DNA of 64,000 bases from Escherichia coli. GTDB lineage: Bacteria; Pseudomonadota; Gammaproteobacteria; Enterobacterales; Enterobacteriaceae. How positions within the stretch are numbered: the first letter of the stretch is position 1; each line of letters begins with the position of its first letter. The stretch is from assembly GCF_003018255.1 (NCBI RefSeq), contig NZ_CP027440.1; one strand, written 5' to 3'. Both the position numbers and the translations under genes were made by a program. The notes beneath the pieces were generated by a model that saw nothing but the letters and a program-made list of their open reading frames with translations, was not told where the DNA came from and searched no databases. Positions 2,650-51,670 of this stretch are shown here, piece by piece.

Positions 2650-3363
2650 ATGGATGACAGTGCTCTGCTCAGAAACTCTTCACTTTTTGTTGCTTATATG
2701 GGCTGTCTCGGATGGGGGAGCGCTTATTTCTATGGATGGGGTACTTCATTTTACTATGGCTTTCCATGGTGGGTTGTCGGGGCTGGTGTCGATGATGTAG
2801 CACGAAGTTTGTTTTATGCTGTGACAGTTATTGTTATATTCCTTATTGGATGGGGAGTTGGTATTGTTTTCTTTTTGGGCATAAAACAAAAGCGCAATAT
2901 ACAAAATTTGAGTTTTATCCGGCTTTTTCTCGCGATATTGCTGCTTTTTATTCCACCTGTTCTGGAGTTTTCTGTAATTCATCAGCATGTTGAGCCAGAT
3001 GTACTGATTTTCTGCGTTCTTGCTGCCTTTGCAATCACGCTTTTTGTCAGGTCTGGAAGAAGACTTGTTTCAGTCAAATGTTTTTCGGAAATGTCTGTTA
3101 TTCGCCATCACCGAATTGAGTTCATGATGGCTGGGTTTATGATTTATTTCTGGGCATTCTCTCTTATTGCCGGTTGGTACAAACCACAGTTTAAGAGGGA
3201 ATATCAGGCGGTCCACTATGAGAATGTATGGTATTACATTATTGCGCGCTATGATGATCGTCTGGTGTTATCGAAATCATACAGGAGTGGGGGTAAGAAA
3301 TTCGTTATATTTAATAGCGGAAATATTAATGATTTTGAAATTAATACTGTCAGAGTACGTTAA
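2650..3363 (+). CDS. multi-pass inner-membrane protein, unknown function (moron)
   Basis: 237 aa with about five hydrophobic Trp/Phe/Gly-rich segments followed by a ~60-aa soluble tail. AT-rich relative to neighbours. No family recognised. Confidence 0.6.
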   Translation: MDDSALLRNSSLFVAYMGCLGWGSAYFYGWGTSFYYGFPWWVVGAGVDDVARSLFYAVTVIVIFLIGWGVGIVFFLGIKQKRNIQNLSFIRLFLAILLLFIPPVLEFSVIHQHVEPDVLIFCVLAAFAITLFVRSGRRLVSVKCFSEMSVIRHHRIEFMMAGFMIYFWAFSLIAGWYKPQFKREYQAVHYENVWYYIIARYDDRLVLSKSYRSGGKKFVIFNSGNINDFEINTVRVR

Positions 3364-4983: not shown

Positions 4984-5059
4984 GGCCCTTTAGCTCAGTG
5001 GTGAGAGCGAGCGACTCATAATCGCCAGGTCGCTGGTTCAAATCCAGCAAGGGCCACCA
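4984..5059 (+). tRNA. tRNA with CAU anticodon, ileX/ileZ-like (Ile2 lysidine type; Met cannot be excluded)
   Basis: Hand-folded cloverleaf: acceptor GGCCCTT/AAGGGCC, D arm GCTC..GAGC, anticodon loop CTCATAA, T arm GCTGG-TTCAAAT-CCAGC, encoded CCA. Closely resembles my recollection of E. coli ileX. Confidence 0.85.
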
Positions 5060-5068
5060 TATCACATA

Positions 5069-5145
5069 CCGCCATTAGCTCATCGGGATAGAGCGCCAGC
5101 CTTCGAAGCTGGCTGCGCGGGGTTCGAGTCCTCGATGGCGGTCCA
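5069..5145 (+). tRNA. tRNA-Arg (UCG anticodon)
   Basis: Hand-folded cloverleaf: acceptor CCGCCAT/ATGGCGG, D arm GCTC..GAGC, anticodon stem CCAGC/GCTGG with loop CTTCGAA, T loop GGTTCGAGTCC, encoded CCA. Confidence 0.8.
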
Positions 5146-5423
5146 TTATCTGCATTATGCGTTGTTGGTTCTGATGAGTGAATCATTGTCTTTTGAGCAA
5201 CAGGCTATCATATAAGATAGCCTCAGACTTCCTTGTTTATTCTCGCCGGATGCTTCGTAGATATTTGCAGGCATCTGTATGCAGGGGTATTATTGCGGCA
5301 TATATCATCCGGAAAAATAAAAACTACATGCTGATCCGGAGATGATAGTTACAAGTCCTCCCGGATCCCGCATATTTACTATATTTTATAGATAATTGTT
5401 CTTGTTAATATGGAGATGGATAA

Positions 5424-5852
5424 ATGTATTGCCGTGCTGTACCTGTTCTTGTTTTGATATTAGCCAGTCTGACAACTGGCTGCACAAAAGATGTATCGAC
5501 AAATAATCATGATGCTTCTCTGTATCACTCAGATAAATTAATAACGTCGCAAAAATTGAGCTCATCGGAACGTACCCCTGATGCCAGTGAAGAAATCCGG
5601 CAGTATGCCATTCAGGTCAGGAAAGCCATAGAAGAACAGTTAAAGGATGCGAGTAAGTATTCAGGAAAAGAGTGTTCACTGAGAATGTATATGGCCCCGA
5701 ATGGTCTTCTGCTACGGGTTAAAAGAGAAAGCGGTGATCCCGATTTATGTCGTGAAGCGATGAATGCAGTAAAGAATGCTGATATACCATCACCACCGTC
5801 TTCAGGAGTATATAAAGCATTTAGAAATGGCGTGCTGGATTTTAAACTCTGA
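5424..5852 (+). CDS. lipoprotein carrying a TolA C-terminal (domain III)-like domain
   Basis: 142 aa. Signal peptide plus lipobox LTTG|C. The C-terminal ~85 aa align with the remembered E. coli TolA C-terminus (YSGKECSLRMYMAPNGLLLRV..GDPDLCREAMNAV...PSPPSSGVYKAFRNGVLDFKL vs YAGKTCTLRIKLAPDGMLLDI..GDPALCQAALAAA...PKPPSQAVYEVFKNAPLDFKP). Confidence 0.8.
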   Translation: MYCRAVPVLVLILASLTTGCTKDVSTNNHDASLYHSDKLITSQKLSSSERTPDASEEIRQYAIQVRKAIEEQLKDASKYSGKECSLRMYMAPNGLLLRVKRESGDPDLCREAMNAVKNADIPSPPSSGVYKAFRNGVLDFKL

Positions 5853-5906
5853 CAGGGGGAGAAGATTTTCTCCTGTCCTGATGATTTTGGGGCGCTGGAA
5901 AGATAT

Positions 5907-6164
5907 TGTGCTGTGAAGTGTTAAATCCCTCACAATTCAGTAAGTTGACAGTTGCCTGTCAGACTGAGCATTTGTTAAAAAAATTTCGCATGGTGAATCC
6001 CCCTGTGCGGAGGGGCGACTGGTGAACGGTATGATCTCTTTGATGATCGTAAGCGAGAATACGCGGGTTTGGTGTCACCGGGCTGAACTCACCGGGAGGC
6101 ACCCGGCACCATGCTCATGGTGATACAGAAATGCGGCTTCAGCCCCTCTCCGGAGGGGCTTTCT
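5907..6164 (+). ncRNA. solitary copy (unit A) of the ~250-bp structured-RNA unit
   Basis: Same four conserved boxes as the 7885-8904 array. Closing stem 5988-5995 GCATGGTG / 6107-6114 CACCATGC. Terminator GCCCCTC-TCCG-GAGGGGC at 6141-6157. Confidence 0.5.
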
Positions 6165-6170
6165 TATGGA

Positions 6171-6239
6171 CAAAAAAAGCCCGCGCTGGGAGACGCGGGC
6201 GGCAAGGAATAAACAATAAAACGTGAAGTAATACTTCAA
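6171..6239 (-). ncRNA. candidate small RNA, copy 1 (promoter to intrinsic terminator)
   Basis: Minus strand: TTGCGC (6275-6270), 18-bp spacer, TATTAT (6251-6246), then ~69 nt ending in GCCCGCG-TCTCCCAG-CGCGGGC plus U7. Paralogue at 8911-8989. Confidence 0.5.
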
Positions 6240-6320
6240 CTGGCGAATAATACCCGACAGTAATCACTCTGCGCAATAGCGTGGCCTTTTTCGAATTGCG
6301 GGCTGTAGTCTCCCTTCTGC

Positions 6321-6484
6321 CGGGTGTCCTGGTTGCAGATTTCTTCATGGGGTAGGGTTCGGCAGTTAAAGCAGCGATGGTGCTGGGGCGTCGTGCAACT
6401 GGCGTTGAGCTGGATACCGGGCGTTTTGAACAGACTGCGCAGGAAATCAGGGATGTATTTAGCGGGAGCGGTTTGCAGAAGTAA
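6321..6484 (+). pseudogene. 3'-terminal remnant of a second DNA methyltransferase gene
   Basis: Nucleotide-level similarity to 4789-4943 (CCTGGTTGCAGATTT..TTCATGGGGT.GGGTTCG...GGGGCGTCGTGCAACTGGCGTTGAGCTGGA). Has an in-frame TAG (ATG GGG TAG) and lacks the 5' ~900 bp. Confidence 0.8.
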
Positions 6485-6547
6485 TCTCCCAAAATGCCAT
6501 TTTTGGAATATACTGGTATTAAGTCTTTTTGCTCAGGTTAATTCAAA

Positions 6548-7273
6548 ATGGATGTTGCCTGCTCTGTGGTCCTGATTCGCTATCCGATAGATATTTTTCT
6601 TGAAAAAGAAAAAGTTTCACTCGATGCCGGAAGTGTTATGCTTGTTGCCAGAAATATAAGAGGGCTTTTCTGTGCTTATGCCGACAGAGTGAAAATGGCA
6701 GATATAAGTAACAGCGTCGTCAATCAGTATCTGGAAAGGGAGTGTGAACTGACGGAGTATACACCGACAAAAATGCCTCTTTATTTGATGTCTGATATTT
6801 ACAATACGGAACTGGCGGAGGCTTTAATAACCCAGCATAGTGAATCCAGTGATACTTTGAAGGATTTCTCTGTTATAACCGCATTTTCATGTATCTCCTT
6901 ATTTGCAACAGACAGACGTCTGCCATTATTTTTGTCCGGTGCTGTAAATAATATCAGCTGTAAAGTAAGGGCTATAATTCAGACCGACATATCGGCAGGC
7001 TGGATGCTTGGTGTGATTGCATTACAATTGCATATGAGCGAAAGCTTGTTGAAGCGAAAACTTAAGGATGAAGGTTATAGCTTTAGTCGGTTGTTGCTGG
7101 AGGAGCGAATGCGTGTTGCTGTTAATCTTGTATGTTTCCAGCGAGAGTGTGGACAAGCGATAGCGGAAAAATGTGGTTACTCAAGTAAGTCCTACTTCAT
7201 TTCTGTATTTCACCAGTATTATGGTGCACCACCTGAGAGCTATGCATATTTGCAGAAAGCAGACGTTATCTGA
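6548..7273 (+). CDS. AraC/XylS-family transcriptional regulator (prophage Psr/PatE-like)
   Basis: 241 aa. The C-terminal double HTH is typical of AraC (LLKRKLKDEGYSFSRLLLEERMRVAVNLV...IAEKCGYSSKSYFISVFHQYYGAPP). AT-rich moron. Confidence 0.8.
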   Translation: MDVACSVVLIRYPIDIFLEKEKVSLDAGSVMLVARNIRGLFCAYADRVKMADISNSVVNQYLERECELTEYTPTKMPLYLMSDIYNTELAEALITQHSESSDTLKDFSVITAFSCISLFATDRRLPLFLSGAVNNISCKVRAIIQTDISAGWMLGVIALQLHMSESLLKRKLKDEGYSFSRLLLEERMRVAVNLVCFQRECGQAIAEKCGYSSKSYFISVFHQYYGAPPESYAYLQKADVI

Positions 7274-7362
7274 TGTTTTTTCATCAGGCATATATTGATT
7301 GACTGTATTAGATATAGTCTGAATGTGTTCAGCATAAAAAGTTATAATCATTTGGTGTTTGC

Positions 7363-7641
7363 GTGAATATTGATGAGAAAATCAGATGTAGCCAACTGTT
7401 ACAGCGTATTGAAGCCGTCAATGTGGAACGAACAAAGGTCTTCAGTCGTCTGACAGTTTTATTTTGTACCCCTGATCGACGTTCAGGTCAGGAGATGGTT
7501 CTTCTGGATGTAGATGCACTTCGGAACGTCTGTGAGGAGTTCACCGCGGCTAATTCGGAGTTACTGAGTCTTGTTCAGGAGTACAACAGAATTGCAGGTA
7601 GTAACGGTTTTGATGAAATCAAAATTATATCCCGTGGATAA
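7363..7641 (+). CDS. hypothetical protein
   Basis: 92 aa, GTG start. Followed by the CCTGTAT...ATACAGG hairpin plus T-run (7651-7680). No family recognised. Confidence 0.4.
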   Translation: MNIDEKIRCSQLLQRIEAVNVERTKVFSRLTVLFCTPDRRSGQEMVLLDVDALRNVCEEFTAANSELLSLVQEYNRIAGSNGFDEIKIISRG

Positions 7642-7884
7642 AACATATCCTGTATATTTATGTTGTTACATACAGGCGCTTTTAGTATCTGCCGCACGGC
7701 AGTTGTACTTCAGAATAAGATGCTTTTGTGACTGGTGGTGTTGTATCTGGGGTTAGCCAGTAGGCAGGTTCAGAGAGTCCGGTGGTAATTATGTGTATGC
7801 AGTGGTTGTTGCTGTACCGTGGGCAAGTTCTGGAACTGGCTTCGTCCATTGTAGATGATTGTTAGCTGGATATCAGTTACCTCA

Positions 7885-8904
7885 TGGAAATGTTAAATGA
7901 CTCACAATTCGGTTGATGGGCTATTGTCTGATCGATGGAAGTCTTGTAAAAACGAGCCAGCATAGTGAATCCCCCTGTGCGGAGGGGCGTCTGACATGGT
8001 CTCCATAGCGATGGTCACAATACGCAGATTCAGTAGTCAGGCTGAATCTACCGGGAGGCACCCGGCACTATGCTGCTTATGGTGTATACATAGCGATCGG
8101 CCCCTCTCCGGAGGGGCTTTTTTTGTGCGGGAAAAGGCTGTGTTGTTAAGTGTTAAATTCCTCACAGTTCGGATGGTTGATGCTTGCCTGTCTGAGGGGG
8201 AGTTGTTAAAAAAGTTCTGCATGGTGAATCCCCCTGTGCGGAGGGGCGACTGGTGTGATTTGCATCTTTTCTGTTGTAGGCAATGCAAACGCGGGTTCAG
8301 GGACGCCAGACTGGACTCACCGGGAGGCACCCGGCACCATGTTCATGATGATACAGATACGCAGTGTCAGCCCCTCTCCTGAGGGGCTTTTTTATGCAGG
8401 AAAAACGCTGTGTTGTGAAATGTTAAATTCCTCACAGTTCAGATGGTTGATGCTTGCCTGTCTGAGGGGGAGTTGTTAAAAAAGTTCTGCATGGTGAATC
8501 CCCCTGAGCGGAGGGGCATATCAGCGCAGGTGTTTCTACTCTATCCTTTCTGTGCGGGTTCAGGTGCTGATACTGAACTCACCGGGAGGCACCCGGCATC
8601 ATGCATATGGTTAACAGACACGTAGCGAAGCCCCTCTCCGGAGGGGCTTTTTTATGCAGGGAAAAGGCTGTGTTGTGAAATGTTAAATTCCTCACAATTC
8701 ATGAGGTTGATGATTGTCTGATTGATGAGGAGTTTGTTAAAAAAAACGGGCATGGTGAATCCCCCTGTGCGGAGGGGTGATATCGTATCATTTCCTGTGT
8801 GGCCGACTGATATCACGGACATTTGTTCACCGGGAGGCACCCGGCACCATGCAGTATACAGAGATTAGGCATACATCCAGGCTCCTCATCGCAGGAGCCT
8901 TTTT
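7885..8904 (+). repeat. tandem array of four ~240-270-bp structured-RNA units (B 7885-8124, C 8125-8393, D 8394-8653, E 8654-8904)
   Basis: Each unit has box 1 TGTTAAAT.CCTCACA(A/G)TTC, box 2 TTGTTAAAAAA..GCATGGTGAATCCCCCTGTGCGGAGGGGC, box 3 CACCGGGAGGCACCCGGCACCATG, and an intrinsic terminator with a T-run. The ORFs crossing the units differ in frame and length. Confidence 0.85.
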
Positions 8905-8910
8905 ACATGT

Positions 8911-39683: not shown

Positions 39684-40952
39684 ATGGCAGTCAGAATATC
39701 GGGTGTGCTGAAGGACGGGGCCGGTAAGCCGGTACCGGGATGCACGATAGAGCTGAAAGCGCGACGCACAACGGAGACGGTGATTGTCACCACGGTGGCG
39801 TATGGTCAGCCGGGGGAAACCGGCAGTTACAGTATGGATGTTGAGCCGGGTCTGTACCGGGTGACGCTGAACACGGAAGGGTACGCGCCGTCATATGTGG
39901 GTGACATTCTGGTGAAGGCGGACTCTGCACCGGGAACGCTGAATAAATTTCTGATGGACCTGGAGGACGCACAGTATTACCCGAAAGCCCTTGCAGAGCT
40001 GGAAGCGGTGGCCGCGGAAATCCTGAAACGTGCGGAAGCGTCAGCGGCGAGTGCAGAGGAAGCGAAGAAACGGGCAGAGAATGCGCGGGGACCGAAGGGG
40101 GATAAGGGAGACACCGGGCCACAGGGTATTCCCGGGCCAAAAGGCGATACCGGCGAGCGTGGGCCAAAGGGTGAGCGTGGTGAGGCAGGCCCACAGGGGG
40201 TACAGGGGCCACGGGGTGAAACCGGACCCGTGGGACCGCAAGGAGAGGCGGGTATTCAGGGGCCTGCTGGTCCTGCGGGCCCGCGAGGTGAAACCGGAGC
40301 CAGAGGCGAAAAAGGAGAGCCGGGAGATCCCGGAGGACCTCCGGGACCAAAAGGTGACACTGGCCCCAGAGGGGAGCCGGGGCCTCAGGGCCCGGCAGGT
40401 CCGAGGGGACCTGCCGGAGAGAGAGGGCCGCAAGGATTGCAGGGTGTGGCAGGGGAGAGAGGCGATACAGGTCCGGCTGGCCCACAGGGTATACCTGGAC
40501 CTCCGGGGCCAACAGGTAGCGTCGGTCCTAAGGGGGAAAAAGGCGAGCCTGGTGATCGAGGTCCACAGGGTGCTACCGGCCCCAGAGGACCACAAGGGGA
40601 AAAAGGGGATAAAGGTGACCCCGGCCCGGCAGGCCCTGCCGGTGAGCGGGGGCCGAAAGGTGATACCGGGCCGACGGGCCCCGCAGGGAAGGATGGCGCA
40701 GATTCACAGGCGAACAGAGTGCGTATCAGCGAGAAAACAGAAGTCACCTCCAGCACAGTCGTTTTCCCCTCTTTTTATGGCGGTGCGCAGGGGGAAAATG
40801 CAGCCCCTGAGGGCGCTGTGATTCTGAATATCAGGACGGCTCCGGTATCACTGACGAACGGCAATTTAGGGGCAGCCTGTGTCACCGCTGTCACTTACGG
40901 CTTCCTTCAGGTTCATGATGGCAGCCAGTGGGTTACGGTGGAACATGAATAA
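39684..40952 (+). CDS. side tail fibre with lambda Stf-like N-terminus and a ~200-aa collagen-like Gly-X-Y region
   Basis: 422 aa. The N-terminus [26 protein letters not shown] is of the prophage tail-fibre N-terminal type. About 67 G-X-Y triplets (nt ~40089-40697) with one single-residue interruption. Confidence 0.85.
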
Positions 40953-41020
40953 CATGATTTTTCCGGGTGCGGAAAGCTTAAACGGGTACCCCGTCCTGAA
41001 TATTCGTATGAGGAGAAGAA

Positions 41021-41692
41021 ATGAATCTTAAAAATCTGCAACGTTATACTCCTGAGAAGTCGGATGTTCCGGGGGCAATGTACCTGAAGGCAGAGGATGG
41101 CCGTGACTGGTATGAAAGCCAGTCGTCATTTAAGGCGGATACGCTGAAGCTGGTTTATGACAGCGAAGGCATAATCACGAGTATCAGTAAGGATGTGTCG
41201 ATGCTGTGGCCAGTGGGACAGAGTGTGGTGGAGGTTGAGGATACAGAAGAAAACCGCAAAGCTGATATCTCCGGGCGCTGGAAGTTTGACGGGGAAAAAG
41301 TCGTTGATACTCTGACCGCGGAGAAAGCGCGCGGGATGAAGGGCGATGAAATAAACGCGTGGCGTAATGCGATGGAGGCGGCGAACTACACGTTTGAGCA
41401 CAATGGCCGGAAATGGGACTACGGAAAGTCAACGCAGACGCGTCTTGAGCCATCGGTGGCGGCAGCGAAAGCGGGGAAACTGCCGGAGGCGTTTTTCTGG
41501 ACGGATGCGGAAAACAATGATGTACAGGTGACAGCAGAAGAGCTTATTGCGCTGAGTGAAGCGGCAGAGCAGGCGATGTTCAGCAAAGGGATGGAAATCC
41601 ACATTCGCCAGCGCACCATGAAGAAGGACCTGGAATCGCTGAGCAGTGCGGATGAGATCCTGGTATACAGGGTTGGCTGGGCACAGGAATAA
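41021..41692 (+). CDS. tail fibre assembly / DUF4376-like protein
   Basis: 223 aa immediately downstream of the fibre gene. The call rests on position and loose resemblance only. Confidence 0.5.
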   Translation: MNLKNLQRYTPEKSDVPGAMYLKAEDGRDWYESQSSFKADTLKLVYDSEGIITSISKDVSMLWPVGQSVVEVEDTEENRKADISGRWKFDGEKVVDTLTAEKARGMKGDEINAWRNAMEAANYTFEHNGRKWDYGKSTQTRLEPSVAAAKAGKLPEAFFWTDAENNDVQVTAEELIALSEAAEQAMFSKGMEIHIRQRTMKKDLESLSSADEILVYRVGWAQE

Positions 41693-41739: not shown

Positions 41740-42003
41740 TTATGTCATTATTGTGAAGATATACACTATGCCGGGTAAATAGTGCCACGGAAAAGTTAAT
41801 TCCGGAAGTGACGGAACTCTCATTTTTCGTGCATCCTGTTGATATGGATGATTTTTCAGATTTTCGGAAGTCCGTATTTTTTCCCAGACATTTTGAAGCG
41901 TTTGCTTAATGAACGTATGTGCAGGCTCTTTATCTACGGCTCTTAAAATTGAGAGTCTATCATTGCTGGAGCCTGTGACAATTACGTCCAGGAAGAACTG
42001 CAT
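41740..42003 (-). CDS. hypothetical 87-aa protein (possibly a gene remnant)
   Basis: AT-rich, weak RBS. Lies downstream of, and could be co-transcribed with, the ORF6N gene. Confidence 0.25.
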   Translation of the reverse strand: MQFFLDVIVTGSSNDRLSILRAVDKEPAHTFIKQTLQNVWEKIRTSENLKNHPYQQDARKMRVPSLPELTFPWHYLPGIVYIFTIMT

Positions 42004-42099
42004 AACCTGGATGATTTACGCTCAATCAGAGAGAGGGCGATTAGCGGCAATCACGCTTGATAAAATTAACCCCAGTGATCATCCGGGGTTTTGCAATCA

Positions 42100-42660
42100 T
42101 TAAAACCGCATCAACCGTTCTACCAGTTGTTCTTTACGGGCAACGATCCAGCCGTGTTGCTCCAGATAAAATTTAAACCGCTCCAGAGTGCATACCATCG
42201 CATCGGCGGGGACTTTTTCTGTGAACTCTACCTGACCGTGTTTATCAAAGTGGATCAGTAATGCGCATCCATCATTTGGGGTGGGGGAGTTTTGTGTTGC
42301 TGGTGGTTGTTTATGGCTGAAATAACAGTCTTCCAGTTTTTCGAACACTTCCCACGCCTGATCGGTTTCGAGCATTTTTGCATGGCGGGCAGCGCCACGT
42401 TCTGTCCAGAGGATAAGGGAGCGGGCATTTTTACCAACTAACCCGATTGTTTCGGGTCTGTTCTTAAACTCGCGTAATTCGTTTTTTTCAATTTTAAAGT
42501 AATGCTTTCCTACCACGAATCGCGTCGTGTTGTTCAGAAAGTTATCAGAAATGTTTTTGATTTTTGTTCCGTATAACTGCGCCAGAAGTTCAGTTGTAAT
42601 AACGGGGATCTGGTTGTGGGTGATTGCAGGAAGAGTGTCGACAGAAATTTGAGTGGTCAT
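42100..42660 (-). CDS. ORF6N / KilA-N(Bro-N)-superfamily antirepressor-like protein
   Basis: 186 aa from ATG 42660 (SD GGAG 8 nt upstream). NQIPVITTELLAQLYGTKIKNISDNFLNNTTRFVVGKHYFKIEKNELREFKN is typical of the ORF6N DNA-binding domain. Confidence 0.7.
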   Translation of the reverse strand: MTTQISVDTLPAITHNQIPVITTELLAQLYGTKIKNISDNFLNNTTRFVVGKHYFKIEKNELREFKNRPETIGLVGKNARSLILWTERGAARHAKMLETDQAWEVFEKLEDCYFSHKQPPATQNSPTPNDGCALLIHFDKHGQVEFTEKVPADAMVCTLERFKFYLEQHGWIVARKEQLVERLMRF

Positions 42661-42714
42661 AACGATAACTCCGTACATTTGAAAATTATCGCCACCTTCA
42701 GGTTCCAATCATCA

Positions 42715-42791
42715 TGGTGGCGAACTGTGCGGGGTTGGAACTACCGGGTACGGAAACCGGCGAGCCTTTCGGCTCCCCCACACAGCCCGCC
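42715..42791 (-). ncRNA. C4-type antisense RNA (P1/P7 immI-like), 77 nt
   Basis: 16-bp closing stem GGCGGGCUGUGUGGGG/CCCCGCACAGUUCGCC followed by ACCA. Inner hairpins are GAGCC-GAAA-GGCUC and CCGG-UUUCCGUAC-CCGG. Single-stranded AGUUCCAA and the loop are complementary to sites flanking the element on both sides. Confidence 0.65.
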
Positions 42792-42824
42792 ATAAATCGC
42801 GAATGTGACTGTGCAAACGATATG

Positions 42825-42901
42825 AAAAAAGACGCGGGCGCGTCTCATATCGCTCCGTAAACATCCGGGGTTCCAATCCCGACGCCAGATTTTGCTGACG
42901 C
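42825..42901 (-). ncRNA. short terminated leader RNA carrying the a1/b1 decoy sites
   Basis: From the predicted TSS (~42901) to the terminator GACGC-GCCC-GCGUC plus U6 (42846-42825). Contains GAUUGGAACC (42878-42869) and UUACGGAG (42860-42853). Confidence 0.5.
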
Positions 42902-42907
42902 GTTGGA

Positions 42908-42937
42908 AATATAGCCCCGGAGGATAAAAACTGTCAA
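42908..42937 (-). promoter_or_regulatory. strong sigma70 promoter of the immI-like operon
   Basis: Minus strand: TTGACA (42937-42932), 18-bp spacer, TATATT (42913-42908). Confidence 0.65.
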
Positions 42938-43130
42938 CGGGTAAAAAAATTTCCGTTATCAGGAATGTATAAAATTAAAGCAATCGAGCAAAAAAACTCT
43001 CTGCAAAACTAAAAAAGATCTCAATAAAATCAGGCAGTTAAAAACACGGAAAAACGGTATAAAAAAGCATCTCAAAATCCTGTTTTTTCTTTCAGATACA
43101 ATATGTTATTGCATTTTTTAAAACCTGCCA

Positions 43131-43247
43131 GTCTGGTACATGGATATTGATACCACTGCCAATTATAAACTGGGCGGTGCACAGCAACACGATAGCGTAC
43201 GCCTCGATCCGTGGGTGTTTATGTTCTCAGCAGGATATCGTTTTTAA
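43131..43247 (+). pseudogene. ompW: 3' fragment of ompW (last 38 codons), separated from the rest of the gene by the prophage
   Basis: Translates to VWYMDIDTTANYKLGGAQQHDSVRLDPWVFMFSAGYRF*, the remembered K-12 OmpW C-terminus. The upstream in-frame sequence hits TAA at 43119-43121. Confidence 0.85.
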
Positions 43248-43261
43248 TTCCGCACAAAAAT

Positions 43262-43281
43262 GACCCCGTAATTACGGGGTC
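43262..43281. terminator. bidirectional terminator between ompW and yciE
   Basis: Perfect palindrome GACCCCGTAATTACGGGGTC. Confidence 0.7.
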
Positions 43282-43305
43282 AATAAGGACATGGTATAAA
43301 GGGTA

Positions 43306-51555: not shown

Positions 51556-51583
51556 AAAAAAAAGCCCGCTCATTAGGCGGGCT
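51556..51583 (-). terminator. trp attenuator (3:4 terminator hairpin)
   Basis: Minus strand: AGCCCGCCTAATGAGCGGGCT followed by U8. Confidence 0.95.
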
Positions 51584-51625
51584 GGGTATCTGATTGCTTT
51601 ACGCATGGTGAATACACTGCCCGTT

Positions 51626-51670
51626 TCAGGAAGTGCGCCACCAACCTTTCAGTACGAAAATTGCTTTCAT
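51626..51670 (-). CDS. trpL: trp operon leader peptide
   Basis: Minus strand ATGAAAGCAATTTTCGTACTGAAAGGTTGGTGGCGCACTTCCTGA = [14 protein letters not shown], with the tandem Trp codons. Confidence 0.97.

What the first reader, a model, noticed from the sequence alone, without database searches (positions are those of the whole stretch)
42660..42937. P1 immI-like antisense switch: a 77-nt C4-type RNA with a1/b1 and a2/b2 sites controlling an ORF6N antirepressor-like gene at the prophage right end
Read on the minus strand, in order:
- Promoter TTGACA-18-TATATT (42937-42908).
- GAUUGGAACC (a1, 42878-42869) and UUACGGAG (b1, 42860-42853).
- An intrinsic terminator (42846-42825).
- A 77-nt element (42791-42715) closed by a 16-bp stem and ending ...CCACCA. 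It contains a GAAA-tetraloop hairpin, a CCGG-stem hairpin with loop UUUCCGUAC, and an unpaired AGUUCCAA.
- An identical GAUUGGAACC (a2, 42710-42701) and GUACGGAG (b2, 42676-42669). The GGAG of b2 is the Shine-Dalgarno sequence 8 nt before ATG 42660.
AGUUCCAA can pair with UUGGAAC in a1 and a2 (7 bp). UUCCGUAC can pair with GUACGGAG in b2 (8 bp) or UACGGAG in b1. This reproduces the phage P1/P7 immunity-I circuit (c4-icd-ant). There, a ~77-nt RNase-P-processed C4 RNA uses two regions (a', b') to bind a2/b2 over the RBS of the first gene and block antirepressor synthesis, and a1/b1 copies lie upstream. Two things are unusual here. The module sits in a lambdoid prophage next to the attachment site. 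And a strong terminator separates a1/b1 from C4, so the promoter should make a free ~77-nt a1b1 RNA that could titrate C4, acting as a built-in sponge or timer.
Basis: partly seen in the sequence, partly recalled or inferred. Interest (0 to 1): 0.72.

Follow-up and report, generated by a model that had tools for sequence, protein, structure and literature searches.

The report
IsrK/C4 antisense switch on prophage antirepressor
This is a real but ordinary member of a known family of phage RNA switches: a small C4 antisense RNA is predicted to block translation of an antirepressor gene, and a short upstream decoy RNA (the IsrK type) is predicted to relieve that block.

Summary
Rfam confirms the parts. 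C4 antisense RNA scores 78.9 bits (threshold 45) at 42713-42797(-). The isrK sRNA scores 72.7 bits (threshold 50) at 42825-42901(-). c4-a1b1 scores 44.6 bits, just under its threshold of 46.7.

The layout matches the annotated P1 immI region almost base for base in spacing. The DNA is 82-86% identical to the ant region of Stx2 phages and to the Gifsy-1 isrK-orf45-anrP locus. The protein is 70% identical to AnrP.

In 63 related modules from viral contigs, the a' heptamer of C4 has a perfect complement at a2 in 61 and at a1 in 48. This never happens between non-cognate modules (0 of 3434). The b' loop behaves likewise, and b2 sits at the Shine-Dalgarno position.

Lambdoid hosts are common. 61 of 63 modules have the terminator, which defines the published IsrK sRNA. 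Citron and Schuster proposed a1/b1 competition in 1990.

The modest new points are a new a'/b' combination and a position at the attR (ompW) end. There is also sequence evidence that the Gifsy-1 "orf45"/STnc1160 is a C4 RNA.

The parts
42908..42937 (-). Sigma-70 promoter: TTGACA (42937-42932), 18-nt spacer, TATATT (42913-42908). The inferred transcription start is G 42901.
   Evidence: Matches 11 of 12 consensus positions. The GGGGCTATATT core is conserved in Gifsy-1 and phi24B, and P1 has the related GGCTTATAGTT. The start is inferred by alignment to the numbering of Gifsy-1 IsrK +1.
42825..42901 (-). 77-nt a1b1 RNA, a homologue of the IsrK sRNA. It has a 5' hairpin (42901-42882) and a second hairpin that presents a1 in its loop (42881-42866; a1 core UUGGAAC 42876-42870). 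These are followed by b1 (42860-42853) and an intrinsic terminator (42846-42825).
   Evidence: Rfam isrK scores 72.7 bits against a threshold of 50. c4-a1b1 scores 44.6 bits against 46.7. Fold; terminator.
42715..42791 (-). C4-type antisense RNA, 76-77 nt. The b' loop UUUCCGUAC is at 42756-42748. The single-stranded a' GUUCCAA is at 42741-42735. The 3' end reads GCCACCA.
   Evidence: Rfam C4 scores 78.9 bits against a threshold of 45. Fold energy -48.5 kcal/mol, z = -6.1. In 33 relatives the closing stem has 9 of 16 pairs with changes on both sides.
42701..42710 (-). a2 target site GAUUGGAACC (core UUGGAAC 42708-42702). It is 7 bp complementary to a'.
   Evidence: Identical to a1. The a'-a2 helix is 97.4% paired in 33 modules, with changes on both sides at 6 of 7 pairs. 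Duplex energy -8.8 kcal/mol.
42689..42723 (-). Conserved hairpin. UCGCCACC (42723-42716, the 3' end of C4) pairs with GGUGGCGA (42696-42689) and holds a2 in the loop.
   Evidence: 93.6% paired in 33 modules, with 2 pairs changed on both sides. It is also seen in the 262-nt fold. Its role is unknown.
42669..42676 (-). b2 target site GUACGGAG. Its GGAG is the Shine-Dalgarno sequence, 8 nt before the ATG.
   Evidence: Duplex with b' is -11.2 kcal/mol. In relatives the b2 duplex ends 8-13 nt before the start codon in 57 of 61 modules.
42100..42660 (-). Antirepressor-family gene of 186 aa (coordinates include the stop codon). It has an ORF6N N-terminal domain and a diverged C-terminal part.
   Evidence: Pfam ORF6N E = 1.6e-20. 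Full-length match to phrog_2379 anti-repressor, E = 3.6e-94. 70% identical to Gifsy-1 AnrP; residues 1-116 are nearly identical.
42068..42090 (-). Terminator-like hairpin that ends the operon.

Best explanation
This is a self-contained immI-type RNA switch on a prophage antirepressor gene.

**Transcripts.** A strong, apparently constitutive promoter starts transcription at about 42901. Most transcripts should stop at the terminator at 42846-42825. That would give a 77-nt RNA carrying a1 and b1, the IsrK homologue. Transcripts that read through carry three things: a tRNA-like C4 RNA of about 77 nt, the target sites a2 and b2, and the antirepressor open reading frame.

**Repression.** C4 acts either after processing or while still in the transcript. 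By analogy with P1, RNase P would make its 5' end. C4 pairs its single-stranded a' with a2 and its b' loop with b2. Because b2 contains the Shine-Dalgarno sequence, this pairing blocks ribosome binding and keeps the antirepressor off.

**Derepression.** The short a1b1 RNA carries slightly weaker copies of the same two sites. In excess it ties up a' and b' and lets the antirepressor be translated. The antirepressor would then inactivate a phage repressor.

**What is shown here:** the elements, their structures, the complementarities, and strong covariation linking a' to both a1 and a2, and b' to both b1 and b2.

**What is inferred from P1 and Gifsy-1 experiments:** processing of C4, the translational block, activation by the short RNA, and the antirepressor activity of the protein.
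For: - **Rfam.** C4 scores 78.9 bits and isrK 72.7 bits. The same two families hit Gifsy-1 at IsrK and at 'orf45'/STnc1160, and C4 hits the annotated c4 gene of P1.
- **Layout.** The order and spacing equal the annotated P1 immI features. Counting from the transcription start, a1 is at +24 here and +26 in P1, C4 at +111 and +114, a2 at +192 and +194, and the ATG at +242 and +241.
- **Four-way alignment.** The window, P1, Gifsy-1 and phi24B show complete compensatory changes at a'/a1/a2 and at b'/b1/b2.
- **63 unique modules with 15 a' and 23 b' variants (alleles).** The perfect 7-mer complement of a' is at the cognate a2 in 61 of 63 and at a1 in 48 of 63. It is found in 0 of 3434 non-cognate combinations. 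A b2 run of at least 7 bases occurs in 55 of 63 cognate modules and in 1.9% of non-cognate ones.
- **Formal pair counts.** a'-a2 is 97.4% paired and a'-a1 is 95.2% paired. Each has 6 of 7 pairs changed on both sides. Slid controls give 18-47%.
- **Position of b2.** The duplex ends 8-13 nt before the start codon in 57 of 61 modules.
- **Gifsy-1 experiments (PMC4825925).** IsrK in trans raises anrP translation 139-fold. The selected mutations G28 and G31 lie in a1, and C162 and C159 lie in a'. An RNA of about 80 nt (STnc1160) is processed from the read-through transcript.
- **Expression.** IsrK and STnc1160 are highly expressed in lysogens (PMC7067206).
Against: - There are no expression or processing data for this locus.
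- In Gifsy-1, a1 mutations in cis (G28A, G31A) raise basal anrP translation from 4 to 93 and 218 units. A pure decoy model predicts the opposite, so a1 also has a role in cis.
- The Gifsy-1 authors detected a tagged orf45 product. They also saw effects of orf45 start and stop mutations.
- RNAcofold does not predict the loop-loop contacts, because it cannot represent them.
- The repressor targeted by the protein is unknown. The prophage immunity region lies outside the window.
Confidence: 0.75

Rival explanations
1. The published Gifsy-1 model applies here. The region between the terminator and ant encodes a small protein (orf45). The read-through mRNA folds into an inactive structure A in which a1 pairs in cis with the 3' part of orf45. 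Short IsrK in trans displaces this pairing and opens the orf45 ribosome-binding site. The antirepressor gene is then translated only by coupling to orf45.
For: There are direct experiments in Gifsy-1: detection of orf45-SPA, start and stop codon mutants, native gels, and a1 mutants in cis that raise basal expression (PMC4825925).
Against: - Here the corresponding frame (ATG 42793) has 31 codons. It stops at 42698, 35 nt before the ant ATG, so there is no AUGA overlap.
- Across 61 modules this frame runs from 14 to 289 codons, and its phase relative to the downstream gene varies.
- The Gifsy-1 authors themselves note that the nucleotide sequence is conserved but the amino acid sequence is not.
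- The region is a high-scoring C4 RNA with covarying stems.
- The part of their helix outside a1-a' shows no covariation (77.7% paired against 77.9% in shuffles).
- Their double mutants did not restore repression (224 and 327 units against 4). This is expected if a' must also pair with an unchanged a2.
Confidence: 0.12
2. C4 acts mainly as a transcription termination factor, as the CI RNA of satellite phage P4 does. Pairing with a1/b1 and a2/b2 on the nascent RNA would promote termination, either at the IsrK terminator or through Rho. This would replace or add to the block on the ribosome-binding site.
For: - The Gifsy-1 authors point out the P4 CI/seqA precedent.
- IsrK in trans also raises a transcriptional fusion 8-fold.
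- b1 ends only 6 nt before the terminator stem.
- a1 mutants in cis raise expression.
- A conserved hairpin around a2 is followed by UAAUUUUC.
Against: The conserved position of b2 over the Shine-Dalgarno sequence points to translational control. In P1, as I recall it, the transcriptional effect is a consequence of blocked icd translation. No termination data exist for this locus.
Confidence: 0.1
3. The module is an inactive relic at the edge of a decaying prophage.
For: It lies in the last 900 bp of the prophage, away from the early region. RefSeq annotates nothing over the RNA part.
Against: The promoter, both RNAs, all four sites and the ORF are intact. 36 complete genomes carry it at 99% identity or more, and 91 share the junction. 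The specificity sites match each other perfectly.
Confidence: 0.03

Closest known systems
Gifsy-1 isrK-orf45(STnc1160)-anrP locus of Salmonella Typhimurium (Hershko-Shalev et al. 2016, PMC4825925)
   Same: - 81.6% DNA identity over the module.
- The same promoter core, the IsrK-type 77-nt RNA with its terminator, and a C4 hit over 'orf45'.
- The protein is 70% identical to AnrP.
- The published compensatory pairs G28-C162 and G31-C159 are a1-a' pairs.
   Different: - The specificity differs: a' is GUUCCAA here and ACGCCAA in Gifsy-1; b' is UUUCCGUAC here and UCGGUGAU there.
- The small frame does not overlap the ant start.
- There is no isrJ downstream.
- The module lies at the attR end beside the tail fibre genes, not downstream of the Q antiterminator.
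- The C-terminal third of the protein has diverged.
Phage P1/P7 immI operon (c4-icd-ant1/2; Citron and Schuster 1990)
   Same: The order P-a1-b1-C4-a2-b2-RBS is the same, with nearly the same spacing. The three-way-junction C4 has a' single-stranded and b' in a loop, and b2 lies over the ribosome-binding site.
   Different: - There is no icd-like leader gene, and Ant follows directly.
- I saw no C1 operator.
- The terminator after b1 is strong here. P1 has only a weak hairpin followed by UAUUUUUG.
- The host phage is lambdoid and integrated, not a plasmid prophage.
- The antirepressor here has an ORF6N domain. I did not compare it directly with P1 Ant1.
ant region of Stx2-converting phages (phi24B/933W type, between ninE and roi)
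   Same: About 85-86% DNA identity. isrK, C4 and c4-a1b1 all score above threshold, and an ORF6N Ant follows.
   Different: The a'/b' specificity differs (GUGCUAA / AUGUUUCGA). The Ant protein has a P22_AR_C C-terminal domain. The module sits in the nin region.
Satellite phage P4 immunity (CI RNA with seqA, seqB, seqC)
   Same: A processed small RNA made from the leader of the operon it controls. Complementary sites lie upstream and downstream of it (as described in PMC4825925).
   Different: P4 CI causes premature transcription termination. It does not cover a ribosome-binding site of an antirepressor gene. I did not compare sequences here.

Membership tests
Rfam RF01695 C4 antisense RNA | Covariance-model score at or above the gathering threshold (45 bits), full length | tested here: met
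   78.9 bits over model positions 1-87 at 42713-42797(-). This is higher than P1's own c4, which scores 68.8 bits.
Rfam RF01394 isrK | Covariance-model score at or above the gathering threshold (50 bits), including the terminator | tested here: met
   72.7 bits over model positions 1-77 at 42825-42901(-).
Rfam RF03163 c4-a1b1 | Covariance-model score at or above the gathering threshold (46.7 bits) | tested here: inconclusive
   44.6 bits, E = 6.4e-10, full length, 2 bits below threshold. P1, Gifsy-1 and phi24B score 48-51 bits.
P1-type immI switch | a' and b' of C4 are complementary to a2 and b2 downstream, with b2 over the ribosome-binding site | tested here: met
   7 bp for a'-a2 and 8 bp for b'-b2, including the GGAG 8 nt before the ATG. 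Covariation.
P1-type immI switch | A second copy of the sites (a1, b1) upstream of C4 in the same transcript | tested here: met
   An identical 10-mer at a1 and 7 bp at b1. Covariation.
P1-type immI switch | C4 is cut out of the precursor, with its 5' end made by RNase P | not testable with these tools
   There is only a tRNA-like acceptor stem and a 3' GCCACCA. An RNA of about 80 nt is processed in Gifsy-1.
P1-type immI switch | The first gene after b2 is icd, translationally coupled to ant | tested here: not met
   The ORF6N gene starts directly after b2, and no icd-like ORF is present.
Gifsy-1 IsrK locus | A small upstream ORF (orf45) whose stop overlaps the antirepressor start (AUGA) | tested here: not met
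   The frame from ATG 42793 stops at 42698, 35 nt before ATG 42660.
Gifsy-1 IsrK locus | The downstream gene is an AnrP orthologue | tested here: met
   70% identity over 185 aa, E = 4e-91.
Gifsy-1 IsrK locus | Located downstream of antQ and followed by isrJ | tested here: not met
   The module lies between the attR/ompW fragment and the tail fibre genes. There is no isrJ hit in the window.
Phage antirepressor (ORF6N / phrog_2379) | Binds and inactivates a phage repressor | not testable with these tools
   Only homology is available: Pfam ORF6N, phrog_2379, and induction of Gifsy-1 by AnrP.

The most novel reading that the evidence does not exclude
The Gifsy-1 IsrK system and the P1 c4 system are one and the same mechanism. 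'orf45'/STnc1160 is a C4 antisense RNA, and IsrK is its dedicated decoy, released by a leaky terminator. A 2025 review still lists the two systems separately.

On this reading the family uses a two-key code: a 7-nt a' and a b' loop of variable length (5-19 nt in this sample). The two keys reassort freely, giving at least 34 combinations among 63 modules. This would let several independent antirepressor switches coexist in one prophage or one cell. In 8 contigs that carry two modules, no pair shares both keys. The prophage in the closest strain carries a second module with different a' and b' in its nin region.
Probability: 0.55. Interest if true: 0.5.

Novelty: new member of a known kind. Interest (0 to 1): 0.3.

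Why it matters
For this locus, the result gives unannotated DNA a name and a testable wiring. RefSeq lists no feature over the RNA part. The wiring is two small RNAs and an antirepressor that may control induction of an E. coli prophage in ompW. That prophage is found in Shiga-toxin-type strain backgrounds.

More broadly, the comparison shows the following:
- The experimentally studied Salmonella IsrK locus is an immI-type C4 switch.
- Both the target sites and the decoy sites are under selection to match C4.
- The specificity determinants are modular.

This offers a simpler reading of the published IsrK data. It also points to a natural set of candidate orthogonal RNA repressor/decoy pairs. 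None of it is a new kind of system.

Tried and rejected
- RNAcofold of C4 with the a1b1 RNA or with the a2b2 leader gave no intermolecular a/b contacts. I set this aside because the method cannot represent loop-loop contacts, and used local duplex energies and covariation instead.
- Duplex-energy ranking separated cognate from non-cognate well for the a sites. It did so only weakly for the b sites (33-36 of 63), because many b' variants share a UCC/GGA core that pairs with any Shine-Dalgarno sequence. I replaced it with Watson-Crick run lengths.
- My first terminator detectors were too strict: 24 of 63, then 47 of 63. Allowing 4-bp GC stems gave 61 of 63.
- I tested the extended IsrK-C4 helix of the Gifsy-1 model for covariation and found none.
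- I looked for a LexA box or a P1 C1 operator at the promoter by eye and saw none. I did not test this formally.
- The P1 genome paper (PMC523184) is not held in the library. A search for C4 with RNase P found nothing useful. Statements about RNase P processing and about Rho-dependent polarity in P1 therefore rest on my own knowledge of Hartmann et al. 1995 and Biere et al. 1992.
- I did not align the b sites in register, because the loops differ in length. No formal pair count was made for b'-b1 or b'-b2; only variant tables are available.
Full report
**Observation**

I read the minus strand of 42000-43300.
- The promoter TTGACA-18-TATATT (42937-42908) matches 11 of 12 consensus positions. 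It is the only strong promoter-like site in 41900-43300.
- The 10-mer GATTGGAACC occurs at 42878-42869 and 42710-42701. These are its only two occurrences in the 64-kb window, where 0.25 are expected.
- The b1 and b2 octamers, the terminator at 42846-42825 and the ATG at 42660 are all present.
- The 77-nt element at 42791-42715 folds as described. It has a 16-bp closing stem, a GAAA hairpin, a CCGG hairpin with a 9-nt loop, and an unpaired AGUUCCAA. The energy is -48.5 kcal/mol, z = -6.1, and 0 of 200 shuffles fold as well.

**Identity of the parts**

Rfam at curated thresholds finds two families:
- C4 antisense RNA (RF01695) at 42713-42797(-), 78.9 bits against a threshold of 45.
- The isrK sRNA (RF01394) at 42825-42901(-), 72.7 bits against a threshold of 50.

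A permissive scan adds c4-a1b1 (RF03163) at 42862-42914(-). It scores 44.6 bits, 2 bits under its threshold.

The gene at 42660-42100 encodes 186 aa with an ORF6N domain (E = 1.6e-20). It matches the anti-repressor family phrog_2379 over its full length (E = 3.6e-94).

**Genomic context**

The window is E. coli chromosome. The order on the minus strand is trp operon, yciG, yciF, yciE, a 3' fragment of ompW (43122-43247), the module, and then the tail fibre, Lom and J genes on the other strand. The module therefore occupies the last 900 bp or so of a lambdoid prophage inserted in ompW.
- 91 of 5426 complete E. coli genomes share this junction.
- 337 genomes have a relative of the RNA part detectable by megablast, and 36 of these are at 99% identity or more.
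- RefSeq annotates nothing over the RNA part.

**Comparison with P1**

The annotated P1 immI region has this layout in locus L005:

| Feature | Position in L005 |
|---|---|
| -10 box | 519-524 |
| a1 | 556-562 |
| b1 | 570-577 |
| c4 | 644-720 |
| a2 | 724-730 |
| b2 | 753-760 |
| icd ATG | 771 |

Counting from the inferred transcription starts, the two loci compare as follows:

| Feature | Window | P1 |
|---|---|---|
| a1 | +24 | +26 |
| b1 | +42 | +40 |
| C4 | +111 to +187 | +114 to +190 |
| a2 | +192 | +194 |
| b2 | +226 | +223 |
| ATG | +242 | +241 |

The architecture is collinear almost to the base.

**Comparison with Gifsy-1 and Stx phages**

The module is 85-86% identical to the ant region of Stx2 phages such as phi24B, where it sits between ninE and roi. 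It is 81.6% identical to Gifsy-1 at the isrK locus. Rfam places isrK at Gifsy-1 L002:3021-3097 and C4 at 3123-3206. That C4 hit lies exactly over the published 'orf45' and the stable processed RNA STnc1160. The protein is 70% identical to AnrP. Residues 1-116 are nearly identical and the C-terminal third has diverged.

**Test of the pairing model by covariation**

A four-way alignment shows four different specificities. In each, a', a1 and a2 change together, and so do b', b1 and b2:

| Phage | a1/a2 core | a' |
|---|---|---|
| Window | UUGGAAC | GUUCCAA |
| Gifsy-1 | UUGGCGU | ACGCCAA |
| phi24B | UUAGCAC | GUGCUAA |
| P1 | UUGACAG | CUGUCAA |

To enlarge the sample, I scanned IMG/VR for the hairpin-1 17-mer. 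This gave 84 parsable C4 loci and 63 unique modules. They carry 15 a' variants (alleles), 23 b' variants and 34 combinations.

| Site | Criterion | Cognate | Non-cognate |
|---|---|---|---|
| a2 | perfect 7-mer complement of a' | 61 of 63 | 0 of 3434 |
| a1 | perfect 7-mer complement of a' | 48 of 63, plus 13 with 6 nt | 0 of 3434 |
| b2 | Watson-Crick run of at least 7 | 55 of 63 | 1.9% |
| b1 | Watson-Crick run of at least 6 | 56 of 63 | 7.9% |

I then made formal pair counts on an alignment of 33 modules:
- a'-a2 is 97.4% paired, with changes on both sides at 6 of 7 pairs.
- a'-a1 is 95.2% paired, again with 6 of 7 pairs changed on both sides.
- Slid controls give 18-47%.
- The C4 closing stem has 9 of 16 pairs changed on both sides.
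- The b2 duplex ends 8-13 nt before the start codon in 57 of 61 modules, which is the Shine-Dalgarno position.

Twenty of these loci were checked with Rfam. All have C4 above threshold. In 17 of the 20 an isrK hit lies about 25 nt upstream of it.

**The two supposedly unusual features**

The terminator between b1 and C4 is present in 61 of 63 modules. It is the hallmark of the isrK subfamily. P1 has only a weaker hairpin followed by UAUUUUUG at that place.

Lambdoid hosts are the norm in this sample. The downstream genes are mostly ORF6N antirepressors (32 modules) or Rha-like regulators (24 modules).

The competition idea for a1/b1 was proposed with the discovery of c4 (Citron and Schuster 1990). 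The Weinberg et al. 2010 supplement quotes it, and that paper also defined the c4 and c4-a1b1 motifs across Proteobacteria and phages.

**Relation to the published IsrK mechanism**

Hershko-Shalev et al. (PMC4825925) reported the following:
- The isrK promoter drives anrP.
- anrP is transcribed but not translated.
- IsrK in trans raises translation 139-fold and transcription 8-fold.
- An RNA of about 80 nt is processed from the read-through transcript.
- AnrP induces antQ and the prophage.

They explained this by a switch between two mRNA structures and by coupling to a small ORF. They mention P4 CI/seqA as a structural homologue but not P1 c4.

I mapped their numbering onto the sequence. G28 and G31 lie in a1 (UUGGCGU, +26 to +32). 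C162 and C159 lie in a' (ACGCCAA, +158 to +164). Their 'helix b-I' core is therefore the a1-a' pairing of the immI model.

Three points favour reading 'orf45' as a C4 RNA:
- The frame is not conserved. It runs from 14 to 289 codons, and its phase relative to the downstream gene varies. In this window it has 31 codons and stops 35 nt before the ant ATG.
- Their double mutants did not restore repression (224 and 327 units against 4). This is expected if a' must also match an unchanged a2.
- The part of their helix outside a1-a' shows no covariation (77.7% paired against 77.9% in shuffles).

One of their results does not fit a pure decoy model. The a1 mutants in cis raise basal expression to 93 and 218 units. 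a1/b1 therefore probably also acts in cis, perhaps on termination as in P4.

A 2025 review still lists IsrK and c4 as separate systems. I found no paper in the library that equates them.

**Most likely mechanism**

- Transcription from the promoter mostly ends at 42825 and gives the a1b1 RNA.
- Read-through gives C4, a2/b2 and ant.
- C4 pairs a' with a2 (-8.8 kcal/mol) and b' with b2 (-11.2 kcal/mol), and so covers the Shine-Dalgarno sequence.
- The a1b1 RNA offers a1 (-10.4 kcal/mol) and b1 (-8.7 kcal/mol) as competing sites.
- Across the family, the target sites are on average slightly better matched than the decoy sites: mean runs of 7.9 against 6.9 for b, with a similar but smaller difference at the a sites (a2 is a perfect 7-mer in 61 of 63 modules, a1 in 48 of 63). 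A decoy would therefore have to be in excess to win.
- The pairings and the selection on them are shown here. Processing, the translational block, derepression and antirepressor activity are inferred from P1 and Gifsy-1.

**Verdict**

The finding is real and correctly identified. It is an ordinary member of a known and widespread family.

What is particular to this locus:
- Its a'/b' combination was not seen in the other 62 modules.
- It has no overlapping small ORF and no icd-like gene.
- It sits at the attR end of the prophage.

The closest sequenced strain carries a second module with different a' and b' in the nin region of the same prophage. That region lies outside the window.

Noticed in passing
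window 4984-8910 (+): Two tRNA genes (4984-5056 and 5069-5142) are followed by five hits to Rfam STnc100 (119-172 bits) at 5959-6171 and at four sites in 7931-8910. This is in the prophage late-region leader. The same array is present in strain JNE120442.
   Followed up: no
L126:516-1306 (E. coli JNE120442, nin region of the same ompW prophage; outside the window): A second isrK + C4 + ORF6N module with different specificity: a' is GUCUCAA and b' is UUGGUUGAU. The protein is 44% identical to the window's. In 8 contigs with two modules, none share both a' and b'.
   Followed up: partly
window 42689-42723 (-): The 3' end of C4 (UCGCCACC) can pair with GGUGGCGA downstream. This forms a conserved hairpin with a2 in its loop. 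It is 93.6% paired in 33 modules, with 2 pairs changed on both sides. It competes with the bottom of the C4 closing stem. Its role is unknown.
   Followed up: partly
window 42698-42793 (-): A 31-codon frame starts at the conserved AUG 2 nt before C4. It corresponds to the Gifsy-1 'orf45', but it ends right after a2 and does not overlap the ant start. The frame is not conserved in the family.
   Followed up: yes
window 39684-41692 (+): The tail fibre region is read as two ORFs (422 aa and 223 aa; phrog_366 and phrog_11571). Strain JNE120442 has one 1959-nt coding sequence here. I did not determine whether this is a different allele or a disruption.
   Followed up: no
window 43122-43282: There is a 126-nt 3' fragment of ompW, left by the prophage insertion. 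The yciE terminator (43282-43261, minus strand) lies upstream of the module and points the same way. Read-through from the stress-induced yciGFE operon into the module is conceivable but untested.
   Followed up: no
window 51556-51649 (-): Tryptophan operon leader, Rfam 93.1 bits. An ordinary chromosomal feature.
   Followed up: no
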